Below are positions 1,117 through 10,144 of a DNA stretch of 23,210 bases, one piece after another. This DNA is from a virus. Taxonomy: Duplodnaviria > Heunggongvirae > Uroviricota > Caudoviricetes. The notes under the pieces are model-generated. The model ran no database searches. It was given only the letters and a program-made list of their open reading frames with translations, and was not told the DNA's origin. Where the stretch lies: the IMG/VR virus record IMGVR_UViG_2531839232_000010. The stretch is one strand, 5' to 3'. Numbering within the stretch: position 1 is the first letter of the stretch; each line of letters opens with the position of its first letter. The position numbers and the translations under genes were made by a program.

Positions 1117-1449
1117 ATGAACCCTTATATTTATCTTGGTGGTGCAATACTTGCAGAGGTCATTGGTACAACCTTAATGAAGTTTTCAGAAGGTTTTACA
1201 CGGTTATGGCCATCTGTTGGTACAATTATTTGTTATTGTGCATCATTCTGGTTATTAGCTCAGACGCTGGCTTATATTCCTACAGGGATTGCTTATGCTA
1301 TCTGGTCAGGAGTCGGTATTGTCCTGATTAGCTTACTATCATGGGGGTTTTTCGGCCAACGGCTGGACCTGCCAGCCGTTATAGGCATGATGTTGATTTG
1401 TGCCGGTGTGTTGGTTATTAATTTATTGTCACGAAGCACACCACATTAA
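1117..1449 (+). CDS. emrE: Small multidrug resistance (SMR) efflux transporter EmrE, 110 aa
   Basis: MNPYIYLGGAILAEVIGTTLMKFSEGF...LLSRSTPH matches E. coli EmrE from memory; four hydrophobic segments. ATG at 1117 with AGGAAAG upstream; the listed ORF start at 1063 is an in-frame upstream extension. Confidence 0.92.
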   Translation: MNPYIYLGGAILAEVIGTTLMKFSEGFTRLWPSVGTIICYCASFWLLAQTLAYIPTGIAYAIWSGVGIVLISLLSWGFFGQRLDLPAVIGMMLICAGVLVINLLSRSTPH

Positions 1450-1693
1450 AAATAATTTCTTTTAAAAGACTGCAATATGGCGGTTCATATCTTTACATGG
1501 GCCGCTTTTGTTAATGTTTTTAGTTTTTGTGTATTCTTTTGTGCCTTCAAGATTATTGCGTAAGCAAATTGCAATACGATTATTGTTGTATATTCAAGAT
1601 AGTGTGATCGTAATTGTCTTTTTAAATAAAAATTAAACAAAAATTATATCTCACCACTAAGGTTTATAAAAGCATAAGTTAGCAGGTGTCACC

Positions 1694-3220
1694 ATGAAAA
1701 AAGCCATAGCATATATGCGATTTTCATCACCAGGTCAGATGTCTGGCGACTCATTAAACCGACAGAGAAGACTTATTGCTGAATGGTTAAAGGTAAATAG
1801 TGATTATTATCTTGATACCATAACATATGAAGATTTAGGATTAAGTGCATTCAAAGGAAAGCATGCACAATCAGGAGCTTTTTCGGAATTTTTAGATGCT
1901 ATAGAGCATGGTTATATATTGCCAGGAACTACATTGTTAGTTGAAAGTCTGGACAGACTTTCAAGAGAAAAAGTCGGTGAAGCGATTGAACGTCTGAAAT
2001 TGATTTTGAATCACGGTATTGATGTTATAACTCTTTGCGACAATACAGTCTATAATATTGACTCTTTGAATGAGCCATATTCATTAATAAAAGCCATACT
2101 TATAGCACAAAGGGCAAATGAAGAAAGCGAGATAAAGTCAAGTCGGGTTAAATTATCATGGAAGAAAAAACGGCAGGATGCACTGGAATCAGGTACGATT
2201 ATGACGGCGTCTTGTCCGAGATGGCTCTCCTTAGATGACAAAAGAACGGCTTTTGTTCCAGACCCCGACAGGGTGAAAACTATTGAGCTAATTTTTAAAC
2301 TCAGGATGGAAAGGCGCTCATTGAATGCAATAGCCAAGTATTTAAATGATCATGCTGTAAAGAATTTCTCAGGAAAAGAAAGTGCATGGGGGCCTTCTGT
2401 AATTGAAAAATTATTAGCGAATAAAGCTCTGATAGGTATATGCGTACCTTCATATCGTGCAAGAGGGAAAGGGATAAGTGAAATCGCTGGCTATTATCCC
2501 AGAGTCATATCAGATGATTTGTTTTACGCTGTACAGGAAATTCGGTTGGCACCTTTTGGTATTAGCAATAGTAGCAAGAATCCTATGCTAATAAATCTAC
2601 TTCGAACAGTTATGAAGTGTGAGGCTTGTGGTAATACCATGATTGTTCATGCGGTATCTGGAAGTTTGCATGGCTATTATGTTTGTCCGATGAGAAGATT
2701 ACATCGATGTGACAGGCCATCAATAAAGAGAGATTTGGTTGATTATAATATCATTAATGAATTGCTTTTTAATTGTAGCAAAATTCAACCAGTTGAAAAC
2801 AAGAAAGATGCTAATGAAACTTTAGAGTTAAAAATTATTGAGCTTCAGATGAAAATTAATAATTTAATCGTTGCATTGTCTGTCGCGCCTGAAGTTACCG
2901 CTATAGCAGAGAAAATAAGACTATTAGATAAGGAATTACGAAGAGCTTTGGTATCATTGAAAACTTTGAAGAGTAAAGGTGTAAATTCATTCAGTGATTT
3001 TTATGCTATTGACTTAACCAGTAAAAATGGACGAGAGTTATGCCGTACACTTGCCTATAAAATATTCGAAAAAATCATAATTAATACGGATAATAAAACC
3101 TGTGATATCTATTTTATGAATGGCATTGTTTTTAAACACTATCCTTTAATGAAAGTAATATCCGCCCAGCAGGCGATAAGTGCTCTCAAATATATGGTTG
3201 ATGGTGAGGTTTATTTTTGA
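1694..3220 (+). CDS. ybcK: Large serine recombinase (YbcK-like), 508 aa
   Basis: N-terminal resolvase-type motif AYMRFSSPGQ (Y-x-R-x-S-S-x-x-Q, catalytic Ser), central Cys cluster C-x2-C...C...C (zinc ribbon), C-terminal coiled-coil-like region. AT-rich codon usage unlike the lambda-like flanks. Resembles DLP12 YbcK as recalled. Confidence 0.8.
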   Translation: MKKAIAYMRFSSPGQMSGDSLNRQRRLIAEWLKVNSDYYLDTITYEDLGLSAFKGKHAQSGAFSEFLDAIEHGYILPGTTLLVESLDRLSREKVGEAIERLKLILNHGIDVITLCDNTVYNIDSLNEPYSLIKAILIAQRANEESEIKSSRVKLSWKKKRQDALESGTIMTASCPRWLSLDDKRTAFVPDPDRVKTIELIFKLRMERRSLNAIAKYLNDHAVKNFSGKESAWGPSVIEKLLANKALIGICVPSYRARGKGISEIAGYYPRVISDDLFYAVQEIRLAPFGISNSSKNPMLINLLRTVMKCEACGNTMIVHAVSGSLHGYYVCPMRRLHRCDRPSIKRDLVDYNIINELLFNCSKIQPVENKKDANETLELKIIELQMKINNLIVALSVAPEVTAIAEKIRLLDKELRRALVSLKTLKSKGVNSFSDFYAIDLTSKNGRELCRTLAYKIFEKIIINTDNKTCDIYFMNGIVFKHYPLMKVISAQQAISALKYMVDGEVYF

Positions 3221-5126: not shown

Positions 5127-5812
5127 ATACCCAATATTTACAGTATGTCCGCGAGCAACTCATTGTGGCTACCGCTGATTTGAGCGGAGCAACGAAAGGA
5201 CAGCTTGAAGCCTGGCTGGAGCATGCACAATTTGATACTGGTACATACAAACGAAAGAAGCCGCGCATTCTGGATGAGGTAACTGGCAGGATGATTACGC
5301 TGGATAATCCGCCGATTTCCGGTAAGCAGTCGTACGCAAAAGGTTCATCCATTGCACTGGTCAGCCAGGTTGAGTTCTCAACCTCGTCATGGCGCCGCGC
5401 GGTTCTGTCTCTCGAAGAACATCAGAAAGCGTGGTTGCTGTGGAGTTACAGCGAAAGTGTTCGCTGGGAACATCAGGTCACCATAACGCAGTGGGCATGG
5501 AGCGAGTTTAAGACTCTGTTGGGTACCAGGAAAATTGCAGGTAAGACACTGGAACGTTTGAAGAAGTTGATCTGGCTGGCGGCACAGGATGTGAAGAACG
5601 AGCTGGCAGGGCGTAAGACCTATGAATACCAGGAGCTGGCATCACTGGTGGGAGTGACATCAAAAAACTGGTCTGAGACATTTACTGAACGCTGGGTTGC
5701 AATGAAACACATTTTTCTACAGCTTGATAGCCAAGCTTTATTGCTTTTAACGAAAACACGTTCAAAACAAAAGACCACATTTTCACAGCAAGATATTGCA
5801 AAACTGGATTAA
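5123..5812 (+). CDS. Putative late-gene antiterminator in the Q position (non-lambda type), 229 aa
   Basis: Last gene of the nin operon, immediately upstream of terminator hairpins and the lysis cassette. No cysteines (lambda Q has a zinc finger); HTH-like segment YQELASLVGVTSKNWSE. Family assignment is positional. Confidence 0.5.
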   Translation: MNTQYLQYVREQLIVATADLSGATKGQLEAWLEHAQFDTGTYKRKKPRILDEVTGRMITLDNPPISGKQSYAKGSSIALVSQVEFSTSSWRRAVLSLEEHQKAWLLWSYSESVRWEHQVTITQWAWSEFKTLLGTRKIAGKTLERLKKLIWLAAQDVKNELAGRKTYEYQELASLVGVTSKNWSETFTERWVAMKHIFLQLDSQALLLLTKTRSKQKTTFSQQDIAKLD

Positions 5813-5880
5813 AAATCATATATTTTATGTAAATCTGATATTTTGCCAATGTTGTACGCACTGGCAGTAATCCAAATTCA

Positions 5881-5917
5881 AGCCCGAGGTTTAAAGCCTT
5901 GGGCTTTTCTGTTTCTG
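5881..5917 (+). terminator. Intrinsic terminator-like hairpin (9-bp stem AGCCCGAGG / CCUUGGGCU with one G-U pair, 7-nt loop) followed by TTTTCTGTTTCTG
   Basis: Read directly from sequence. Confidence 0.55.
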
Positions 5918-5993
5918 AACGGTGAGTAGCCTTCCAACCTACCCCAGCCAGGGGGTCTTCAGCTGTTGAGTTGATATTGCTTAGCCCTCTGTT

Positions 5994-6017
5994 GCCAGCT
6001 ACATGCTGGCTTTTTTA
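5994..6017 (+). terminator. Intrinsic terminator (6-bp GC stem GCCAGC / GCTGGC, 5-nt loop, TTTTTTA tract); candidate tR' of the late promoter transcript
   Basis: Read directly; classic rho-independent geometry, about 120 bp upstream of the holin start. Confidence 0.6.
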
Positions 6018-6133
6018 TTCCAGGCTTGTGGGGAGCATCAACTCCGTGCTTTGTCGTTAAATTACCCCGTGAGCCTGATTTCTGACATTTAACGTCCCGG
6101 CCTTTTGTCGGCGGCGAAACATTGGCTATTCAT

Positions 6134-6439
6134 ATGCACGAAAAAGAGAGCCTTGCCGGAGCGTTCTGGCTCGTTTTGCTGATCATCGCAGGTTGGGGCG
6201 GTCTGGTCCGCTACCTGATAGATGTGAAGCAGAGTAAAGCAACGTGGAGTTGGATAAATGCTCTGGCTCAAATAGTGGTATCAGGATTCACCGGTGTTAT
6301 TGGTGGCCTGATCAGCATCGAAAGTGGATTCAGTATTTACATGATTCTCGCGACAGCGGGGATTAGTGGTGCGATGGGTTCGGTTGCACTGACGTACTTC
6401 TGGGAACGACTGACAGGGGTGAAAAATGCAAAATCTTAA
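6134..6439 (+). CDS. Holin (three predicted transmembrane segments), not lambda-S-like
   Basis: MHEKESLAGAFWLVLLIIAGWGGLVRYLI...; three hydrophobic stretches, charged C-terminus, 3' overlap with endolysin R as in lambda S/R. Start uncertain: in-frame TTG at 6122 would add MAIH. Confidence 0.7.
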   Translation: MHEKESLAGAFWLVLLIIAGWGGLVRYLIDVKQSKATWSWINALAQIVVSGFTGVIGGLISIESGFSIYMILATAGISGAMGSVALTYFWERLTGVKNAKS

Positions 6440-6902: not shown

Positions 6903-7360
6903 GCAGAATAACCGCGATTATCTCCGCTCTGCTCATCTGCATCATCGTCTGCCTGTCATGGGCTGTTAATCATTACCGTGATAACGCCATTACCTACAAA
7001 GCCCAGCGCGACAAAAATGCCAGAGAACTGAAGCTGGCGAACGTGGCAATTACTGACATGCAGATGCGTCAGCGTGATGTTGCTGCGCTCGATGCAAAAT
7101 ACACGAAGGAGTTAGCTGATGCGAAAGCTGAAAATGATGCTCTGCATGATGATGTTGCCGCTGGTCGTCGTCGGTTGCACATCAAAGCAGTCTGTCAGTC
7201 AGTGCGTGAAGCCACCACCGCCTCCGGCGTGGATAATGCAGCCTCCCCCCGACTGGCAGACACCGCTGAACGGGATTATTTCACCCTCAGAGAGAGGCTG
7301 ATCACTATGCAAAAACAACTGGAAGGAACCCAGAAGTATATTAATGAGCAGTGCAGATAG
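6899..7360 (+). CDS. Rz: Spanin inner-membrane subunit Rz, 153 aa
   Basis: [44 protein letters not shown]... near-identical to lambda Rz from memory. Confidence 0.95.
7119..7301 (+). CDS. Rz1: Spanin outer-membrane lipoprotein Rz1, 60 aa, embedded in the +1 frame of Rz
   Basis: [24 protein letters not shown]... (lipobox LVVVGC), proline-rich; AAGGAG upstream of ATG 7119. Confidence 0.92.
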
Positions 7361-7391
7361 AGCTGCCCATATCGATGGGCAACTCATGCAA

Positions 7392-7685
7392 TTATTGTGA
7401 GCAATACACCCGCGCTTCCAGCGGAGTATAAATGCCTAAAGTAATAAAACCGAGCAATCCATTTACGAATGTTTGCTGGGTTTCTGTTTTAACAACATTT
7501 TCTGTGCCGCCACAAATTTTGGCTGCATCGACAGTTTTCTTCTGCCCAATTCCAGAAACGAAGAAATGATGGGTGATGGTTTCCTTTGGTGCTACTGCTG
7601 TCTGTTTGTTTTGAACAGTAAACGTCTGTTGAGCACATCCTGTAATAAGCAGGGCCAGCGCAGTAGCGAGTAGCATTTTTTTCAT
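7392..7685 (-). CDS. bor: Bor outer-membrane lipoprotein (serum-resistance moron), 97 aa
   Basis: MKKMLLATALALLITGCAQQTFTVQNK... matches lambda Bor from memory; lipoprotein signal with lipobox ITGC. Confidence 0.93.
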   Translation of the reverse strand: MKKMLLATALALLITGCAQQTFTVQNKQTAVAPKETITHHFFVSGIGQKKTVDAAKICGGTENVVKTETQQTFVNGLLGFITLGIYTPLEARVYCSQ

Positions 7686-7818
7686 GGTGTTATTCCCGAT
7701 GCTTTTTGAAGTTCGCAGAATCGTATGTGTAGAAAATTAAACAAACCCTAAACAATGAGTTGAAATCTCATATTGTTAATATTTATTAATGTATGTCAGA
7801 TGCGAAGGATCGTCACTG

Positions 7819-7884
7819 TATTCCCGGATTAACTATGTCCGCAGCCCTGACAGGGAAACTCCTCTGCGGGAGTGTCCGGGAATA
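7819..7884. repeat. Nested palindrome: outer 10-bp arms TATTCCCGGA / TCCGGGAATA, inner 6-bp CCGCAG / CTGCGG, central CCCTG-A-CAGGG
   Basis: Read directly. Lies in the bor-ybcV intergenic region, upstream of bor on its coding strand. Confidence 0.5.
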
Positions 7885-7976
7885 ATTAATAACGATGCAC
7901 ACAGGGTTTAGCGCGTACACGTATTGCATTATGCCAACGCCCCGGTGCTGACACGGAAGAAACCGGACGTGATGAT

Positions 7977-8387
7977 TTAGCGTGGAAAGATTTGTGTAGT
8001 GTTCTGAATGCTCTCAGTAAATAGTAATGAATTATCAAAGGCATAGTAATATCTTTTATGTTCGTGGATATTTGTAACCCATCGGAAAACTCCTGCTTTA
8101 GCAAGATTTTCCCTGTATTGCTGAAATGTGATTTCTCTTGATTTCAACCTATCATAGGACGTTTCTATAAGATGCGTATTTCTTGAGAATTTAACATTCA
8201 CAACCTTTTTAAGTCCTTTTATTAACACAGTGTTATCGTTTTCTAACACAATGTGAATATTATCTGTGGCTAGATAGTAAATATAATGTGAGACATTGTG
8301 ACGTTTTAGTTCAGAATAAAACAATTCACAGTTTAAATCTTTTCGCACTTGATCGAATATTTCTTTAAAAATGGCAACCTGAGCCAT
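7977..8387 (-). CDS. ybcV: DUF1398-like uncharacterised protein (YbcV-like), 136 aa
   Basis: [19 protein letters not shown]...[25 protein letters not shown]...; AT-rich. The 136-aa form matches the K-12 YbcV length as recalled. The ORF stays open to 8510 (177 aa), so the true start is uncertain. Confidence 0.7.
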
Positions 8388-8598
8388 TGGTAAAACCTTC
8401 CATGTGATACGAGGGCGCGTAGTTTGCATTATCGTTTTTATCGTTTCAATCTGGTCTGACCTCTTTGTGTTTTGTTGATGATTTATGTCAAATATTAGGA
8501 ATGTTTTCAATTAATAGTATTGGTTGCGTAACAAAGTGCGGTCCTGCTGGCATTCTGGAGGGAAATACAACCGACAGATGTATGTAAGGCCAACGTGC

Positions 8599-8624
8599 TC
8601 AAATCTTCATACAGAAAGATTTGA
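8599..8624. promoter_or_regulatory. 9-bp inverted repeat TCAAATCTT / AAGATTTGA with 8-nt spacer, about 50 bp upstream of ybcW
   Basis: Read directly; sits in the divergent ybcV/ybcW intergenic region. Confidence 0.3.
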
Positions 8625-8672
8625 AGTAATATTTTAACCGCTAGATGAAGAGCAAGCGCATGGAGCGACAAA

Positions 8673-8879
8673 ATGAATAAAGAACAATCTGCTGATGATC
8701 CCTCCGTGGATCTGATTCGTGTAAAAAATATGCTTAATAGCACCATTTCTATGAGTTACCCTGATGTTGTAATTGCATGTATAGAACATAAGGTGTCTCT
8801 GGAAGCATTCAGGGCAATTGAGGCAGCGTTGGTGAAGCACGATAATAATATGAAGGATTATTCCCTGGTGGTTGACTGA
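8673..8879 (+). CDS. ybcW: Small acidic uncharacterised protein (YbcW-like), 68 aa
   Basis: [68 protein letters not shown]; protein-like composition, unlike the equally long antisense ORF 8634-8840. Confidence 0.65.
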
Positions 8880-8915
8880 TCACCATAACTGCTAATCATT
8901 CAAACTACTTAACCT

Positions 8916-8943
8916 GTGACAGAGCCAACACGCAGTCTGTCAC
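8916..8943. terminator. Stem-loop (8-bp stem GTGACAGA / TCTGTCAC, 12-nt loop) between convergent ybcW and ylcI
   Basis: Read directly; no strong U-tract on either strand, so low confidence as a terminator. Confidence 0.3.
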
Positions 8944-9043
8944 TGTCAGGAAAGTGGTAAAACTGCAACTCAATTACTGCAATGCCCTCGTAATTAAGTG
9001 AATTTACAATATCGTCCTGTTCGGAGGGAAGAACGCGGGATGT

Positions 9044-9238
9044 TCATTCTTCATCACTTTTAATTGATGTATATGCTCTCTTTTCTGACGTTAGCCTCCG
9101 ACGGCAGGCTTCAATGACCCAGGCTGAGAAATTTCCGGACCCTTTTTGATCAAGAGCGATGTTAATTTGTTCAATCATTTGGTTAGGAAAGCGGATGTTG
9201 CGGGTTGTTGTTCTGCGGGTTCTGTTCTTCGTTGACAT
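9044..9238 (-). CDS. ylcI: Small basic protein with ribbon-helix-helix-like pattern (YlcI-like), 64 aa
   Basis: MSTKNRTRRTTTRNIRFPNQMIEQINIALDQKGSGNFSAWVIEACRRRL...: basic N-tail, then beta-strand/helix/turn/helix pattern typical of Arc/MetJ/CopG RHH folds. Fold call is by eye. Confidence 0.6.
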   Translation of the reverse strand: MSTKNRTRRTTTRNIRFPNQMIEQINIALDQKGSGNFSAWVIEACRRRLTSEKRAYTSIKSDEE

Positions 9239-9437
9239 AATGTTGCCCCATATTCAGTGTTGCTGATTTGTATTATCTGAAGTTGCTTTTACGTTAATTT
9301 GATGCAGATCAATTAATACGATACCTGCGTCATAATTGATTATTTGACGTGGTTTGATGGCGTAGATGCACGTTGTGACATGTAGATGATAATTATTATC
9401 ATTTTGCGGGTCCTTTCCGGCGATCCGACCGGTTACG

Positions 9438-9449
9438 GGGCGGCGACCT
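9438..9449. other. cosN: cosN: 12-nt cohesive-end sequence GGGCGGCGACCT (terminase nicking site)
   Basis: Exact lambda cohesive-end sequence, preceded by ...CGATCCGACCGGTTACG, which resembles the lambda right end. cosQ-like sequence GGGTCCTTTCCGG lies just upstream (about 9408-9420). Confidence 0.9.
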
Positions 9450-9620
9450 CGCGGGTTTTCGCTATTTATGAAAATTTTCCGGGGAAAATCATGTCGGTAC
9501 TTCTCGAACATAACTATTTGTTTTTTCTAATATCGAATCCGTAAAGGTCCGACATGAAAACGCCTGAAAAAGTCATTTTCGGGCACTTTCATGTCGGACC
9601 CTGTATTTGTTGTGAGACTG
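9450..9620. promoter_or_regulatory. cosB: cosB with three terminase small-subunit binding repeats and an AT-rich bend region
   Basis: Three copies of a CATGTCGG core: AATCATGTCGGTAC (9487-9500), TTTTCATGTCGGACC on the minus strand (9546-9560), TTTCATGTCGGACC (9587-9600). The middle copy is inverted. These differ from lambda R-site sequences as I recall them. Confidence 0.7.
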
Positions 9621-9624
9621 TTTC

Positions 9625-10144
9625 ATGAAGGTTAATAAAAAGAAACTTGCCGAAATTTTCAACGTGGATCCGCGAACGATTGAACGCTGGCAGTCTCAGG
9701 GGCTCCCTTGCGTCTCCGGAGGTGGTAAGGGCGTTGAATCTGTATTTGATACCGCCACGGCAATTCAGTGGTATGCGCAGAGGGAAGCTGATATCGAAAA
9801 TGAAAAACTCCGTAAAGAGGTTGAGGATTACAGGGCTGCCAGCGAGGCAGATCTCCAGCCTGGGACTATTGAGTACGAATGCCATCGACTTACGCGTGCG
9901 CAGGCTGACGCCCAGGAGCTGAAGAATGCCAGAGACTCCGCAGAAGTGGTGGAAACCGCATTCTGTACTTTCGTGCTGTCACGGATCGCAGGTGAAATTG
10001 CCAGTATTCTCGACGGGATCCCCCTGTCGGTGCAGCGGCGTTTTCCGGAACTGGAAAACCGACATGTTGATTTCCTGAAACGGGATATTATCAAAGCCAT
10101 GAACAAAGCAGCCGCGCTGGATGAACTGATACCGGGGTTGCTGA

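What the first reader, a model, noticed from the sequence alone, without database searches (positions are those of the whole stretch)
7977..9238. AT-rich island of three small uncharacterised genes next to cos
Between the lysis genes and cos sit ybcV (minus strand), ybcW (plus) and ylcI (minus), each with its own inverted repeat nearby and codon composition unlike the structural genes. Their arrangement (divergent, then convergent) suggests independent expression, possibly from the prophage state. None has a well-defined function to my knowledge. Such small late-region genes are typical sites for lysogenic-conversion or superinfection-exclusion functions.
Basis: partly seen in the sequence, partly recalled or inferred. 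Interest (0 to 1): 0.45.

Follow-up and report, generated by a model that had tools for sequence, protein, structure and literature searches.

The report
Lambda's right-end accessory gene slot
The three small genes are real but already known: they are the non-essential accessory genes at the right end of phage lambda, here in an E. coli O157:H7 prophage, and they are three separately shuffled cargo genes (a small DNA-binding regulator, a protein with a solved structure but no known role, and a late protein reported to set off a bacterial defence system), not one new system.

Summary
ybcV (7977-8387, -), ybcW (8673-8879, +) and ylcI (9044-9238, -) lie between bor and cosN (9438-9449), in DNA of 38% GC against 57% for the structural genes. 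The claim of an inverted repeat for each gene fails: repeats inside the interval are not above chance.

The stretch is 97.4% identical to phage lambda 46753-48502, so these are lambda p78, p79 and an unannotated ylcI. All three are under purifying selection.

They assort independently among lambdoid phages. ylcI occurs alone, with ybcV, or with both, and ybcW occurs without ybcV. This is a variable cargo slot, bounded on the left by a conserved 120-bp hairpin element (7800-7921) and on the right by cos.

- YlcI (DUF3950) is most likely a ribbon-helix-helix DNA-binding regulator.
- YbcV (DUF1398) has a solved paralogue, YdfO (2HH8). It has no membrane segment and is dispensable, so the labels 'envelope protein' and 'head protein' look wrong.
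- YbcW is 100% identical to lambda p79. It lies on the late strand, is non-essential, and a 2026 preprint reports it as the activator of the Vulcan NADase defence system.

No known defence, toxin-antitoxin or exclusion family matches. Verdict: already known genes, modest interest.

The parts
7800..7921 (.). Conserved 120-bp element with a compound hairpin (outer arms 7819-7828 and 7875-7884). It is the left border of the variable cargo slot.
   Evidence: Perfect 10-nt inverted repeat. It folds better than shuffles on both strands: z -3.2 on the minus strand and -2.7 on the plus strand. It is about 80% conserved in phages that lack bor, ybcV and ybcW. RNAalifold on 9 variants gives 26 pairs, with CG<->GC covariation at one pair. 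At least 120 IMG/VR stretches match its two arms; in the 80 loci I examined it lies after the lysis-region genes and, where the contig reaches them, before the packaging genes, with or without ylcI. No Rfam match.
7977..8387 (-). ybcV, equivalent to lambda p78: a DUF1398 protein of 136 aa, predicted cytoplasmic.
   Evidence: Pfam PF07166 E=3.4e-46. PDB 2HH8 (YdfO) E=4.5e-71. 98.5% identical to lambda p78. PGAP coordinates. dN/dS 0.23-0.39; no hydrophobic segment. CRISPRi non-essential.
8388..8672 (.). Divergent ybcV/ybcW control region, containing a PdhR box at 8449-8465 and a 9-nt perfect palindrome at 8599-8624.
   Evidence: The box sequence is identical to the genomic-SELEX site reported for DLP12 (PMC7660256). 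The region differs from a lambda-type phage at 2 positions. Palindrome.
8673..8879 (+). ybcW, equivalent to lambda p79: a 68-aa acidic protein predicted to have three helices, on the late-transcript strand.
   Evidence: 100% identical to lambda p79. PHROG 657; no Pfam family. AlphaFold2 single-sequence model pLDDT 62, helices 14-24, 29-39 and 43-62. dN/dS 0.41. Reported Vulcan activator. Scored essential by CRISPRi only through polarity.
8880..9043 (.). Convergent ybcW/ylcI spacer.
   Evidence: Only weak inverted repeats, at 8917-8948 and 8968-8999. ybcW-ylcI is listed as a convergent excludon in K-12 RNA-seq.
9044..9238 (-). ylcI: a DUF3950 (YlcI/YnfO family) protein of 64 aa, a probable ribbon-helix-helix DNA-binding protein.
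9239..9437 (.). ylcI upstream region, which is also the left side of cos.
   Evidence: Highly conserved among lambda-type loci together with ylcI: 9027-9525 is about 92% identical. This region is absent upstream of ylcI in HNH-type phages.
9438..9449 (+). cosN 12-base cohesive-end sequence: the right border of the slot.
   Evidence: Single exact match. Nu1 starts 176 nt downstream.
7910..9026 (.). The 1.1-kb ybcV-ybcW insertion/deletion cassette, defined against related prophages that carry only ylcI.
   Evidence: In loci lacking both genes, homology stops at about 7909 and resumes at 9027, with about 56 bp in between.

Best explanation
This is the non-essential accessory-gene slot at the right end of a lambda-type prophage of E. 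coli O157:H7. The same DNA in phage lambda itself carries p78, p79 and an unannotated ylcI. The slot lies between a conserved 120-bp hairpin element (7800-7921) and cos. Different lambdoid phages fill it with different combinations of three unrelated small genes, which are kept by purifying selection but shuffled independently.

Shown:
- Identity to lambda.
- The gene models.
- Independent assortment of the three genes.
- Purifying selection on all three.
- Membership of DUF1398 and DUF3950.
- Absence of membrane segments.
- 100% identity of YbcW to lambda p79.

Taken from papers:
- p78 and p79 are dispensable for plaque formation.
- p79 co-expression activates the Vulcan NADase system, and lambda-vir escapers delete p79.
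- PdhR binds the ybcV/ybcW spacer, and both mRNAs depend on it in K-12.

Inferred:
1. YlcI is a ribbon-helix-helix dimer that binds DNA and acts as a small transcriptional regulator. It is expressed leftward, antisense to the late operon, and so probably from the prophage. Originally it was the first gene of a ylcI->ybcV unit, as in Qin ynfO-ydfO.
2. YbcV is a soluble cytoplasmic effector of unknown activity. In this arrangement it is driven by its own host-controlled promoter.
3. YbcW is made from the late transcript during lytic growth. It probably acts by binding a host protein, and Vulcan senses either that activity or the protein itself.
For: Identity. The stretch is 97.4% identical to lambda NC_001416 46753-48502 over 90% of 7686-9624. 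The protein identities to lambda are 98.5%, 100% and 98.4%. The source is an O157:H7 prophage.

Assortment. Phage records holding each gene number 43 (ybcV), 40 (ybcW) and 152 (ylcI). Arrangements seen:
- bor-ylcI-cos, without the 1.1-kb cassette.
- ylcI->ybcV tandem without ybcW, in Qin (57-bp spacer) and in phage Chlobot.
- ybcW without ybcV, in mEp460_ev081.
- ylcI next to an unrelated HNH-TerS-TerL packaging module, in Stx2a_WGPS6.

Selection. dN/dS is 0.23-0.39 for ybcV, 0.41 for ybcW and 0.10-0.32 for ylcI.

YlcI as ribbon-helix-helix.
- The conserved motif is KxIRFP-helix-GxxNFSAWV-helix.
- The AlphaFold2 topology fits: an extended N-terminus, then helices 19-32 and 37-63.
- Foldseek hits are mostly ribbon-helix-helix proteins.
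- There are weak profile hits to CopG-family and CdbA proteins.
- hhalign places the sequence in register with Arc.
- Homologues in integrase-bearing satellite-like elements are divergent from the primase operon, with iterated motifs upstream.

Expression and dispensability.
Against: No experiment on any of the three proteins from this prophage exists.

No operator could be identified. The upstream regions of ylcI in lambda-type and HNH-type phages share no 9-mers.

The YbcW model is of low confidence (pLDDT 62) and has no structural neighbours, so 'binds a host protein' is conjecture.

Expression evidence comes from the defective K-12 prophages DLP12 and Qin, not from a lambda lysogen. The usual list of lysogen-expressed lambda genes is cI, rexAB, lom and bor only. 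The more than 1000-fold induction of ybcV and ybcW on T4 MotB over-expression was measured in BL21(DE3). It may simply reflect induction of the lambda DE3 prophage.
Confidence: 0.7

Rival explanations
1. The three genes form one functional module. For example, they could be a prophage-encoded defence or superinfection-exclusion system, or a toxin-antitoxin pair (YlcI as a ribbon-helix-helix antitoxin, YbcV as the toxin) with YbcW as an accessory.
Against: ylcI occurs alone in about 100 more phage records than ybcV or ybcW. ybcW occurs without ybcV, and ybcV occurs without ybcW. The C-terminal tail of YlcI is the same in loci with and without ybcV, which is not expected for an antitoxin matched to a toxin. 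There is no significant PADLOC or Pfam toxin or defence match. In this window the genes have separate orientations and spacers. The only over-expression effects mentioned in the papers read here are on glycogen accumulation and oxidative-stress resistance; none reports toxicity.
Confidence: 0.1
2. YlcI is an accessory DNA-packaging factor that binds at or near cos. It would modulate terminase action, or protect cos in the prophage.
For: In the loci examined, ylcI lies about 390 bp, less often about 440 bp, from Nu1. The ylcI-cosN block 9027-9525 is about 92% conserved even where the rest of the slot differs. In an HNH-type phage, ylcI is 41 bp from the packaging operon. Two family members, P0316 and P0376, fuse DUF3950 to the N-terminal helix-turn-helix of the small-terminase family PF03592, scoring above Pfam's threshold. 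One of them is carried by contigs in 43 blocks of the assembly index.
Against: The same ribbon-helix-helix domain (86.5% nucleotide identity, dN 0.06) sits beside unrelated packaging modules. Homology starts exactly at the ATG, with none upstream, so the domain cannot be matched to one cos sequence. The gene is antisense to the late operon that makes the packaging proteins. Close linkage to cos is also explained by simple hitch-hiking. Other family members lie in non-phage contexts (a TonB-receptor/CopC operon, downstream of cdtABC) or next to integrases.
Confidence: 0.1
3. The ORFs are decaying remnants without function, or chance ORFs in AT-rich spacer DNA.
For: They are dispensable for plaque formation. 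They have atypical composition. They are missing from many related phages.
Against: All three show purifying selection, with dN/dS of 0.04-0.41 at dS up to 1.6. All match curated or clustered protein families. A YbcV paralogue folds (2HH8). p79 has a reported biological activity.
Confidence: 0.03

Closest known systems
Phage lambda right end: bor, lambdap78, lambdap79 and cos (NC_001416 46753-48502)
   Same: It is the same DNA at 97.4% identity, with the same gene order and strands. YbcW is 100% identical to p79, YbcV 98.5% to p78 and YlcI 98.4% to the unannotated lambda ORF.
   Different: To the right of cosN the sequence diverges from lambda at about 9482. It carries a different cosB, with three CATGTCGGWMC repeats, and a different Nu1 N-terminus. 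The window is a resident O157:H7 prophage with DLP12-type early genes.
E. coli K-12 cryptic prophages: DLP12 (ybcV-ybcW-ylcI-nohD) and Qin (nohA-ynfO-ydfO)
   Same: The gene names and families are the same. DLP12 has the same three-gene arrangement and the same PdhR box.
   Different: Qin lacks ybcW and has ynfO->ydfO in tandem, 57 bp apart. YnfO also has a different, longer C-terminal tail.
Ribbon-helix-helix repressors and antitoxins (Arc, Mnt, CopG, TacA, ParD)
   Same: Similar size, a basic N-terminal arm, a strand-helix-helix topology, a G-x-x-N-F-S turn before helix B, and best structural neighbours in this superfamily.
   Different: There is no significant sequence match to any ribbon-helix-helix family. 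No operator or partner toxin was identified, and DNA binding is untested.
Phage proteins that trigger abortive-infection defence systems (here lambda p79 triggering Vulcan)
   Same: The protein is identical to the reported Vulcan activator, so this prophage would be expected to trigger Vulcan when it grows lytically.
   Different: The activator role is a property of the host's sensor, not the protein's own function. That function remains unknown.
Lambdoid accessory ('moron') genes such as bor and lom
   Same: AT-rich, dispensable, antisense to the late operon (ybcV and ylcI), mosaic in distribution and host-regulated.
   Different: Bor and Lom are envelope proteins with export signals, and Bor has a reported serum-resistance phenotype. 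The three proteins here have no hydrophobic segment, and no host phenotype is attributed to the copies in this prophage or in lambda.

Membership tests
Phage lambda p78 / p79 / ylcI locus | Nucleotide and protein identity and gene order with lambda 46.75-48.5 kb | tested here: met
   97.4% DNA identity over 1752 bases. Protein identities 98.5%, 100% and 98.4%. The annotation of lambda-type phage O276 lists all three genes in the same order.
DUF1398 (PF07166), YdfO-like | Full-length match to the family profile above Pfam's gathering score | tested here: met
   E=3.4e-46, 156.6 bits against a cut-off of 22, covering profile positions 1-119 of 119. PDB 2HH8 YdfO E=4.5e-71.
DUF3950 / YlcI-YnfO family (PF13132, NF041551) | Match above the curated cut-offs | tested here: met
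   Pfam 71.4 bits against 25. NCBIfam 36.6 bits against 30.
Ribbon-helix-helix (Arc/MetJ/CopG) superfamily | Significant sequence or profile similarity to a ribbon-helix-helix family | tested here: not met
   Only weak matches. RHH_6 E=0.09 for one family member. CopG-family 9kkd E=0.3 and CdbA E=0.4 with a family profile. hhalign against Arc is in register but with a probability of 4.5%.
Ribbon-helix-helix (Arc/MetJ/CopG) superfamily | Strand-helix-helix topology with structural neighbours in the superfamily | tested here: inconclusive
Ribbon-helix-helix (Arc/MetJ/CopG) superfamily | Obligate dimer that inserts a two-stranded sheet into the DNA major groove and binds repeated operator half-sites | not testable with these tools
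   No dimer prediction was possible. No operator motif is shared between the ylcI upstream regions.
Type II toxin-antitoxin pair (ribbon-helix-helix antitoxin plus toxin) | Obligate co-occurrence of the two genes as an adjacent co-directional operon | tested here: not met
   In the window the two genes are 656 bp apart, with ybcW between them on the other strand. ylcI occurs without ybcV in many phages. The YlcI tail is unchanged when ybcV is absent.
Type II toxin-antitoxin pair (ribbon-helix-helix antitoxin plus toxin) | The downstream protein belongs to a known toxin family | tested here: not met
   YbcV matches only DUF1398. The PADLOC hit to REase_II is only 16.7 bits.
Known anti-phage defence systems (PADLOC-DB v2) | A match of any of the three proteins to a defence-system model | tested here: not met
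   There is no hit for YlcI. There are weak, sub-threshold hits for YbcV (E=9e-4) and YbcW (E=0.017).
Envelope-located lysogenic-conversion or exclusion proteins (Bor, Lom, SieB type); also the database label 'putative envelope protein' for p78 | A signal peptide, lipobox or transmembrane segment | tested here: not met
   The maximum 19-residue Kyte-Doolittle hydropathy is 0.43 for YbcV, 0.93 for YbcW and 0.34 for YlcI, against 1.49 for Bor's signal peptide.
Virion 'head protein' (PHROG 413 / RefSeq label for p78) | Required for particle formation and encoded on the late transcript | tested here: not met
   The gene is on the strand opposite to the late operon. CRISPRi knock-down gives an efficiency of plating of 1.3-1.9, and the gene is listed as non-essential.
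Activator of the Vulcan NIR-NADase defence system | Sequence identity with lambda p79, the protein shown to activate Vulcan | tested here: met
   68 of 68 residues are identical. The activity itself is taken from bioRxiv 10.64898/2026.09.04.749371 and was not tested here.

The most novel reading that the evidence does not exclude
YlcI-type ribbon-helix-helix proteins could be a shared regulatory currency between lambdoid helper phages and their satellites. Close relatives sit next to the integrase of satellite-like elements, divergent from the primase operon and with iterated motifs upstream. Some of these are fused to a small-terminase-type helix-turn-helix. The phage-borne YlcI beside cos might therefore repress, or be sensed by, resident satellites; alternatively the satellite copies might read the helper's packaging state. 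Separately, the conserved 120-nt hairpin element at the left border of the slot could be an undescribed structured RNA of the late transcript.
Probability: 0.12. Interest if true: 0.55.

Novelty: already known. Interest (0 to 1): 0.28.

Why it matters
These are among the last unassigned genes of phage lambda, the best-studied virus there is, and copies sit in most E. coli genomes, including O157:H7 and Shiga-toxin phages.

The practical points are as follows.
- The database labels 'envelope protein' and 'head protein' for p78 are probably wrong.
- This prophage carries an exact copy of the protein that a recent preprint identifies as the trigger of the Vulcan NAD-depleting defence.
- YlcI is a tractable candidate DNA-binding regulator whose target could be found with a single ChIP-seq experiment.
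- The region behaves as a cargo slot with defined borders, which is useful for phage engineering and for reading prophage mosaics.

None of this overturns current understanding.

Tried and rejected
1. Deep protein searches for YlcI and YbcW gave no usable diversity. The top hits were hundreds of roughly 3.5-kb ENA contigs at 85-100% identity, plus records labelled 'Staphylococcus', 'Veillonella' and a plant. I read these as the Oxford Nanopore lambda control amplicon with read errors. Several 50%-identity representatives also looked frame-shifted, and I removed them before aligning.
2. Structure of YbcW. The single-sequence AlphaFold2 model has pLDDT 62, and Foldseek against the PDB gave only noise. 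No fold assignment was made.
Only its sequence link to 2HH8 is reported.
4. Search for a YlcI operator. The ATCAATTA-like repeats upstream of ylcI (9295-9340) are absent upstream of the nearly identical gene in HNH-type phages. No 9-mers are shared, and only trivial 8-mers are shared with the hairpin element. I rejected them as a conserved operator.
5. Enrichment of inverted repeats, promoters and terminators inside the interval: not significant.
6. Rfam at E up to 1 over 7300-9700 gave only a spurious miRNA match on the cosB hairpin.
7. PADLOC, NCBIfam and permissive Pfam scans assigned no function.
8. Toxin-antitoxin reading of ylcI and ybcV: rejected on co-occurrence and on the invariance of the YlcI tail.
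9. YlcI as a cos-specific binder: set aside, because the same domain neighbours unrelated packaging modules.
10. Strict coupling of the hairpin element with ylcI: rejected, because the element also occurs without a detectable ylcI.
11. The lambda ribosome-profiling paper (PNAS 2013) is not in the held library. Translation in lambda lysogens therefore could not be checked.
Full report
What is there.

A 99.7% identical E. coli O157:H7 chromosome is annotated with ybcV at 7977-8387 (-), ybcW at 8673-8879 (+) and ylcI at 9044-9238 (-). They lie between bor (7392-7685, -) and nohD/Nu1, inside a lambdoid prophage with DLP12-type early genes and lambda-type head and tail genes.

The 177-aa ORF listed mechanically for ybcV is too long. 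The ATG at 8387 has a GGAAGG Shine-Dalgarno sequence 8 nt upstream, matches the PGAP model, and leaves a 285-bp divergent spacer.

The 12-base lambda cohesive-end sequence is at 9438-9449.

The block is AT-rich. GC is 38.1% against 57.0% for the structural genes. GC3 is 0.29, 0.39 and 0.42 for the three genes against 0.62-0.68.

The one part of the observation that fails is 'each with its own inverted repeat'. Inside the interval, perfect inverted repeats are at shuffle expectation and promoter-like matches are at chance. The two significant hairpins nearby both lie outside it, at 7819-7884 and 9546-9600.

What it is.

The region 7686-9482 is 97.4% identical to the right end of phage lambda, NC_001416 46753-48502. 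ybcV is lambda p78 (98.5% protein identity). ybcW is p79 (100%). ylcI is present in lambda (98.4%) but is annotated only in some records. These are therefore known genes of the best-studied phage.

All three are real coding genes under purifying selection. dN/dS is 0.23-0.39 for ybcV and 0.41 for ybcW. It is 0.10-0.32 for ylcI, falling to 0.04-0.21 over its first 50 codons at dS up to 1.6.

Architecture: a cargo slot, not a module.

The 80 IMG/VR loci found through ylcI fall into two classes. One has the full ybcV-ybcW-ylcI set. The other has ylcI about 364 bp from bor, with window 7910-9026 replaced by about 56 bp.

Other phages show further combinations:
- Qin and phage Chlobot have ylcI/ynfO followed by ybcV/ydfO in the same direction, 57 bp downstream in Qin and about 40 bp in Chlobot, with no ybcW.
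- mEp460_ev081 has ybcW without ybcV.
- Stx2a_WGPS6 has ylcI alone, 41 bp from and divergent to an unrelated HNH-TerS-TerL packaging operon.

In the phage collection, ylcI is found in 152 records, against 43 for ybcV and 40 for ybcW. The three genes therefore assort independently.

What is constant is the position: between the lysis region and the packaging genes.

A 120-bp element at 7800-7921 is also widespread. It carries a compound hairpin that folds better than shuffles (z -3.2 and -2.7). It is about 80% conserved even in phages without bor, ybcV or ybcW. It keeps its pairs across nine variants, with one CG<->GC covarying pair and many wobble substitutions that favour the late-transcript strand. 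At least 120 IMG/VR stretches match its two arms. In the 80 loci I examined it lies after the lysis-region genes and, where the contig reaches them, before the packaging genes, with or without ylcI. I read it as the left border of the slot, with cos as the right border. Its function is open: an RNA processing or stability site on the late transcript, a barrier to leftward transcripts, or a recombination linker.

The individual proteins.

YlcI (64 aa) belongs to DUF3950 / YlcI-YnfO. This is a small family: 141 representatives at E up to 0.001 among 1.84 billion, and many of those are sequencing junk.

A cleaned alignment shows a basic N-terminal arm, an invariant I-R(-F-P), a helix, a G-x-x-N-F-S turn and a second helix. 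That is the ribbon-helix-helix pattern. The evidence on this point is:
- The AlphaFold2 model built with that alignment gives residues 1-18 extended and helices at 19-32 and 37-63 (pLDDT 66.7).
- Foldseek's list is mostly ribbon-helix-helix proteins, including TCP, NikA, HicB, Arc, NikR, MazE9, ParD and CopG, but none has E below 0.5.
- Profile searches give only weak CopG, CdbA and RHH_6 hits.
- hhalign aligns the sequence in register with Arc.

I treat the fold as probable, not proven.

Relatives add context. Two family members fuse DUF3950 to the N-terminal helix-turn-helix of small-terminase family PF03592, scoring above Pfam's threshold. These, and unfused copies, sit next to the integrase of satellite-like elements. 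They are divergent from the primase operon and have obvious iterated motifs upstream. This is the layout of a mobile-element regulator. Other members lie in a TonB-receptor/CopC operon and downstream of cdtABC.

The ribbon-helix-helix domain is nearly invariant across phages whose ylcI upstream DNA and packaging modules are unrelated. This argues against a cos-specific role. It also leaves the DNA target unknown.

YbcV (136 aa) is a full-length DUF1398 protein and a close paralogue of YdfO, whose NMR structure is 2HH8. It has no hydrophobic segment, it is antisense to the late operon, and it is non-essential by CRISPRi and deletion. The circulating labels 'putative envelope protein' and 'head protein' are therefore unsupported.

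YbcW (68 aa) is acidic (11 D+E against 7 K+R), has no Pfam family, and is predicted to form three helices at low confidence. It lies on the late strand. CRISPRi scored it essential only because the roadblock is polar on the late transcript, as the authors themselves state.

A preprint of September 2026 reports three findings about p79 (bioRxiv 10.64898/2026.09.04.749371). Seven of seven lambda-vir escapers of the Vulcan NADase system had deleted it. The authors suggest the deletions arose by recombination with Qin. Co-expression of p79 with Vulcan is toxic. Qin has homologous flanks but no ybcW, which fits that suggested route.

Expression.

In K-12, PdhR binds the ybcV/ybcW spacer, and the reported box is present unchanged at window 8449-8465. 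Both mRNAs drop 9- to 10-fold in a pdhR mutant. ybcW and ylcI are listed as a convergent overlapping-transcript pair. ybcVW respond quickly to DNA damage by a DNase toxin, and ydfO responds to ionic-liquid stress. The large induction seen on T4 MotB over-expression was measured in BL21(DE3) and may just reflect induction of lambda DE3. I found no direct data for a lambda lysogen. The usual list of lysogen-expressed genes does not include these three.

Mechanism, and how sure.

With confidence of about 0.7, I conclude that this is lambda's accessory cargo slot, holding three independent genes.
- YlcI is a small ribbon-helix-helix regulator. It is transcribed leftward from beside cos, and ancestrally it headed a ylcI->ybcV unit.
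- YbcV is a soluble effector of unknown activity, here under its own host-controlled promoter.
- YbcW is a late-expressed small acidic protein that probably works by binding a host component, and Vulcan detects it.

Identity, architecture, selection and family membership are shown here. Dispensability, PdhR control and Vulcan activation come from papers. DNA binding by YlcI, expression in the prophage state, and any host-binding role of YbcW are inferred.

The rivals are weaker. These are a single defence or toxin-antitoxin module, a cos accessory factor, and junk ORFs. The reasons are given under each.

Novelty and score.

This work adds the slot anatomy with its conserved border element, a probable fold and regulator role for YlcI, the correction of the p78 labels, and the link to the Vulcan trigger. 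That is useful housekeeping on lambda's remaining unassigned genes, not a surprise, hence an interest of about 0.28.

Noticed in passing
window 7800-7921: A conserved 120-bp element with a compound hairpin (outer arms TATTCCCGGA / TCCGGGAATA). At least 120 IMG/VR stretches match its arms; in the 80 loci examined it lies after the lysis-region genes and, where the contig reaches them, before the packaging genes, independently of bor, ybcV, ybcW or ylcI. One pair covaries, and the wobble pattern favours the late-transcript strand. It is not in Rfam.
   Followed up: partly
window 9490-9600 (between cosN and Nu1): Three copies of CATGTCGGWMC (3 found against 0.08 expected). Two of them form a 25-nt-arm inverted repeat at 9546-9600. 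Homology to lambda stops at about 9482. These are probably the Nu1-binding R sites of a non-lambda cosB specificity that matches the divergent Nu1 N-terminus.
   Followed up: partly
protein database hits: Hundreds of roughly 3.5-kb ENA contigs carry error-ridden copies of lambda's right end. So do records labelled Staphylococcus aureus, Veillonella and the plant Dovyalis caffra. This is almost certainly the Oxford Nanopore 3.6-kb lambda control strand left in assemblies. It inflates the apparent family sizes and seeds frame-shifted 'representatives'.
   Followed up: partly
phage record MW057783.1 ('Campylobacter phage CJLB-4', 48361 bp): This record carries YbcW at 100% and YlcI at 98.4% identity, at lambda-like coordinates. 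It looks like phage lambda deposited under a Campylobacter phage name.
   Followed up: no
L085 (CP027459.1) 5590-6363 and L089 4714-5103: Integrase-bearing satellite-like elements carry DUF3950 genes beside the integrase. These include 120-129-aa fusions of DUF3950 to the N-terminal helix-turn-helix of small-terminase family PF03592. Iterated motifs lie upstream (GTTTAACAC three or four times; GTGCACAAACAC-like three times). In L085 the element lies beside a prophage whose own DUF3950 gene sits between the lysis genes and the HNH gene.
   Followed up: partly
window 8449-8465: The PdhR box ATCTGGTCTGACCTCTT lies inside the mechanical 177-aa ybcV ORF, that is, in the true 5' region of ybcV. It is present exactly in 38 of the 91 loci held at the time of the search.
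   Followed up: partly
window 7977-8387 (YbcV residues 23-104): A weak PADLOC match to a type II restriction-enzyme model (PDLC03453, E=9e-4, 16.7 bits). This is probably noise, but it is the only hint of an activity for DUF1398.
   Followed up: no
window 1117-3220: The prophage carries emrE (a multidrug efflux SMR transporter) and ybcK (a recombinase-family protein, GC3 0.29) between ren and the nin-type genes. This is another AT-rich cargo insertion of DLP12 type.
   Followed up: no
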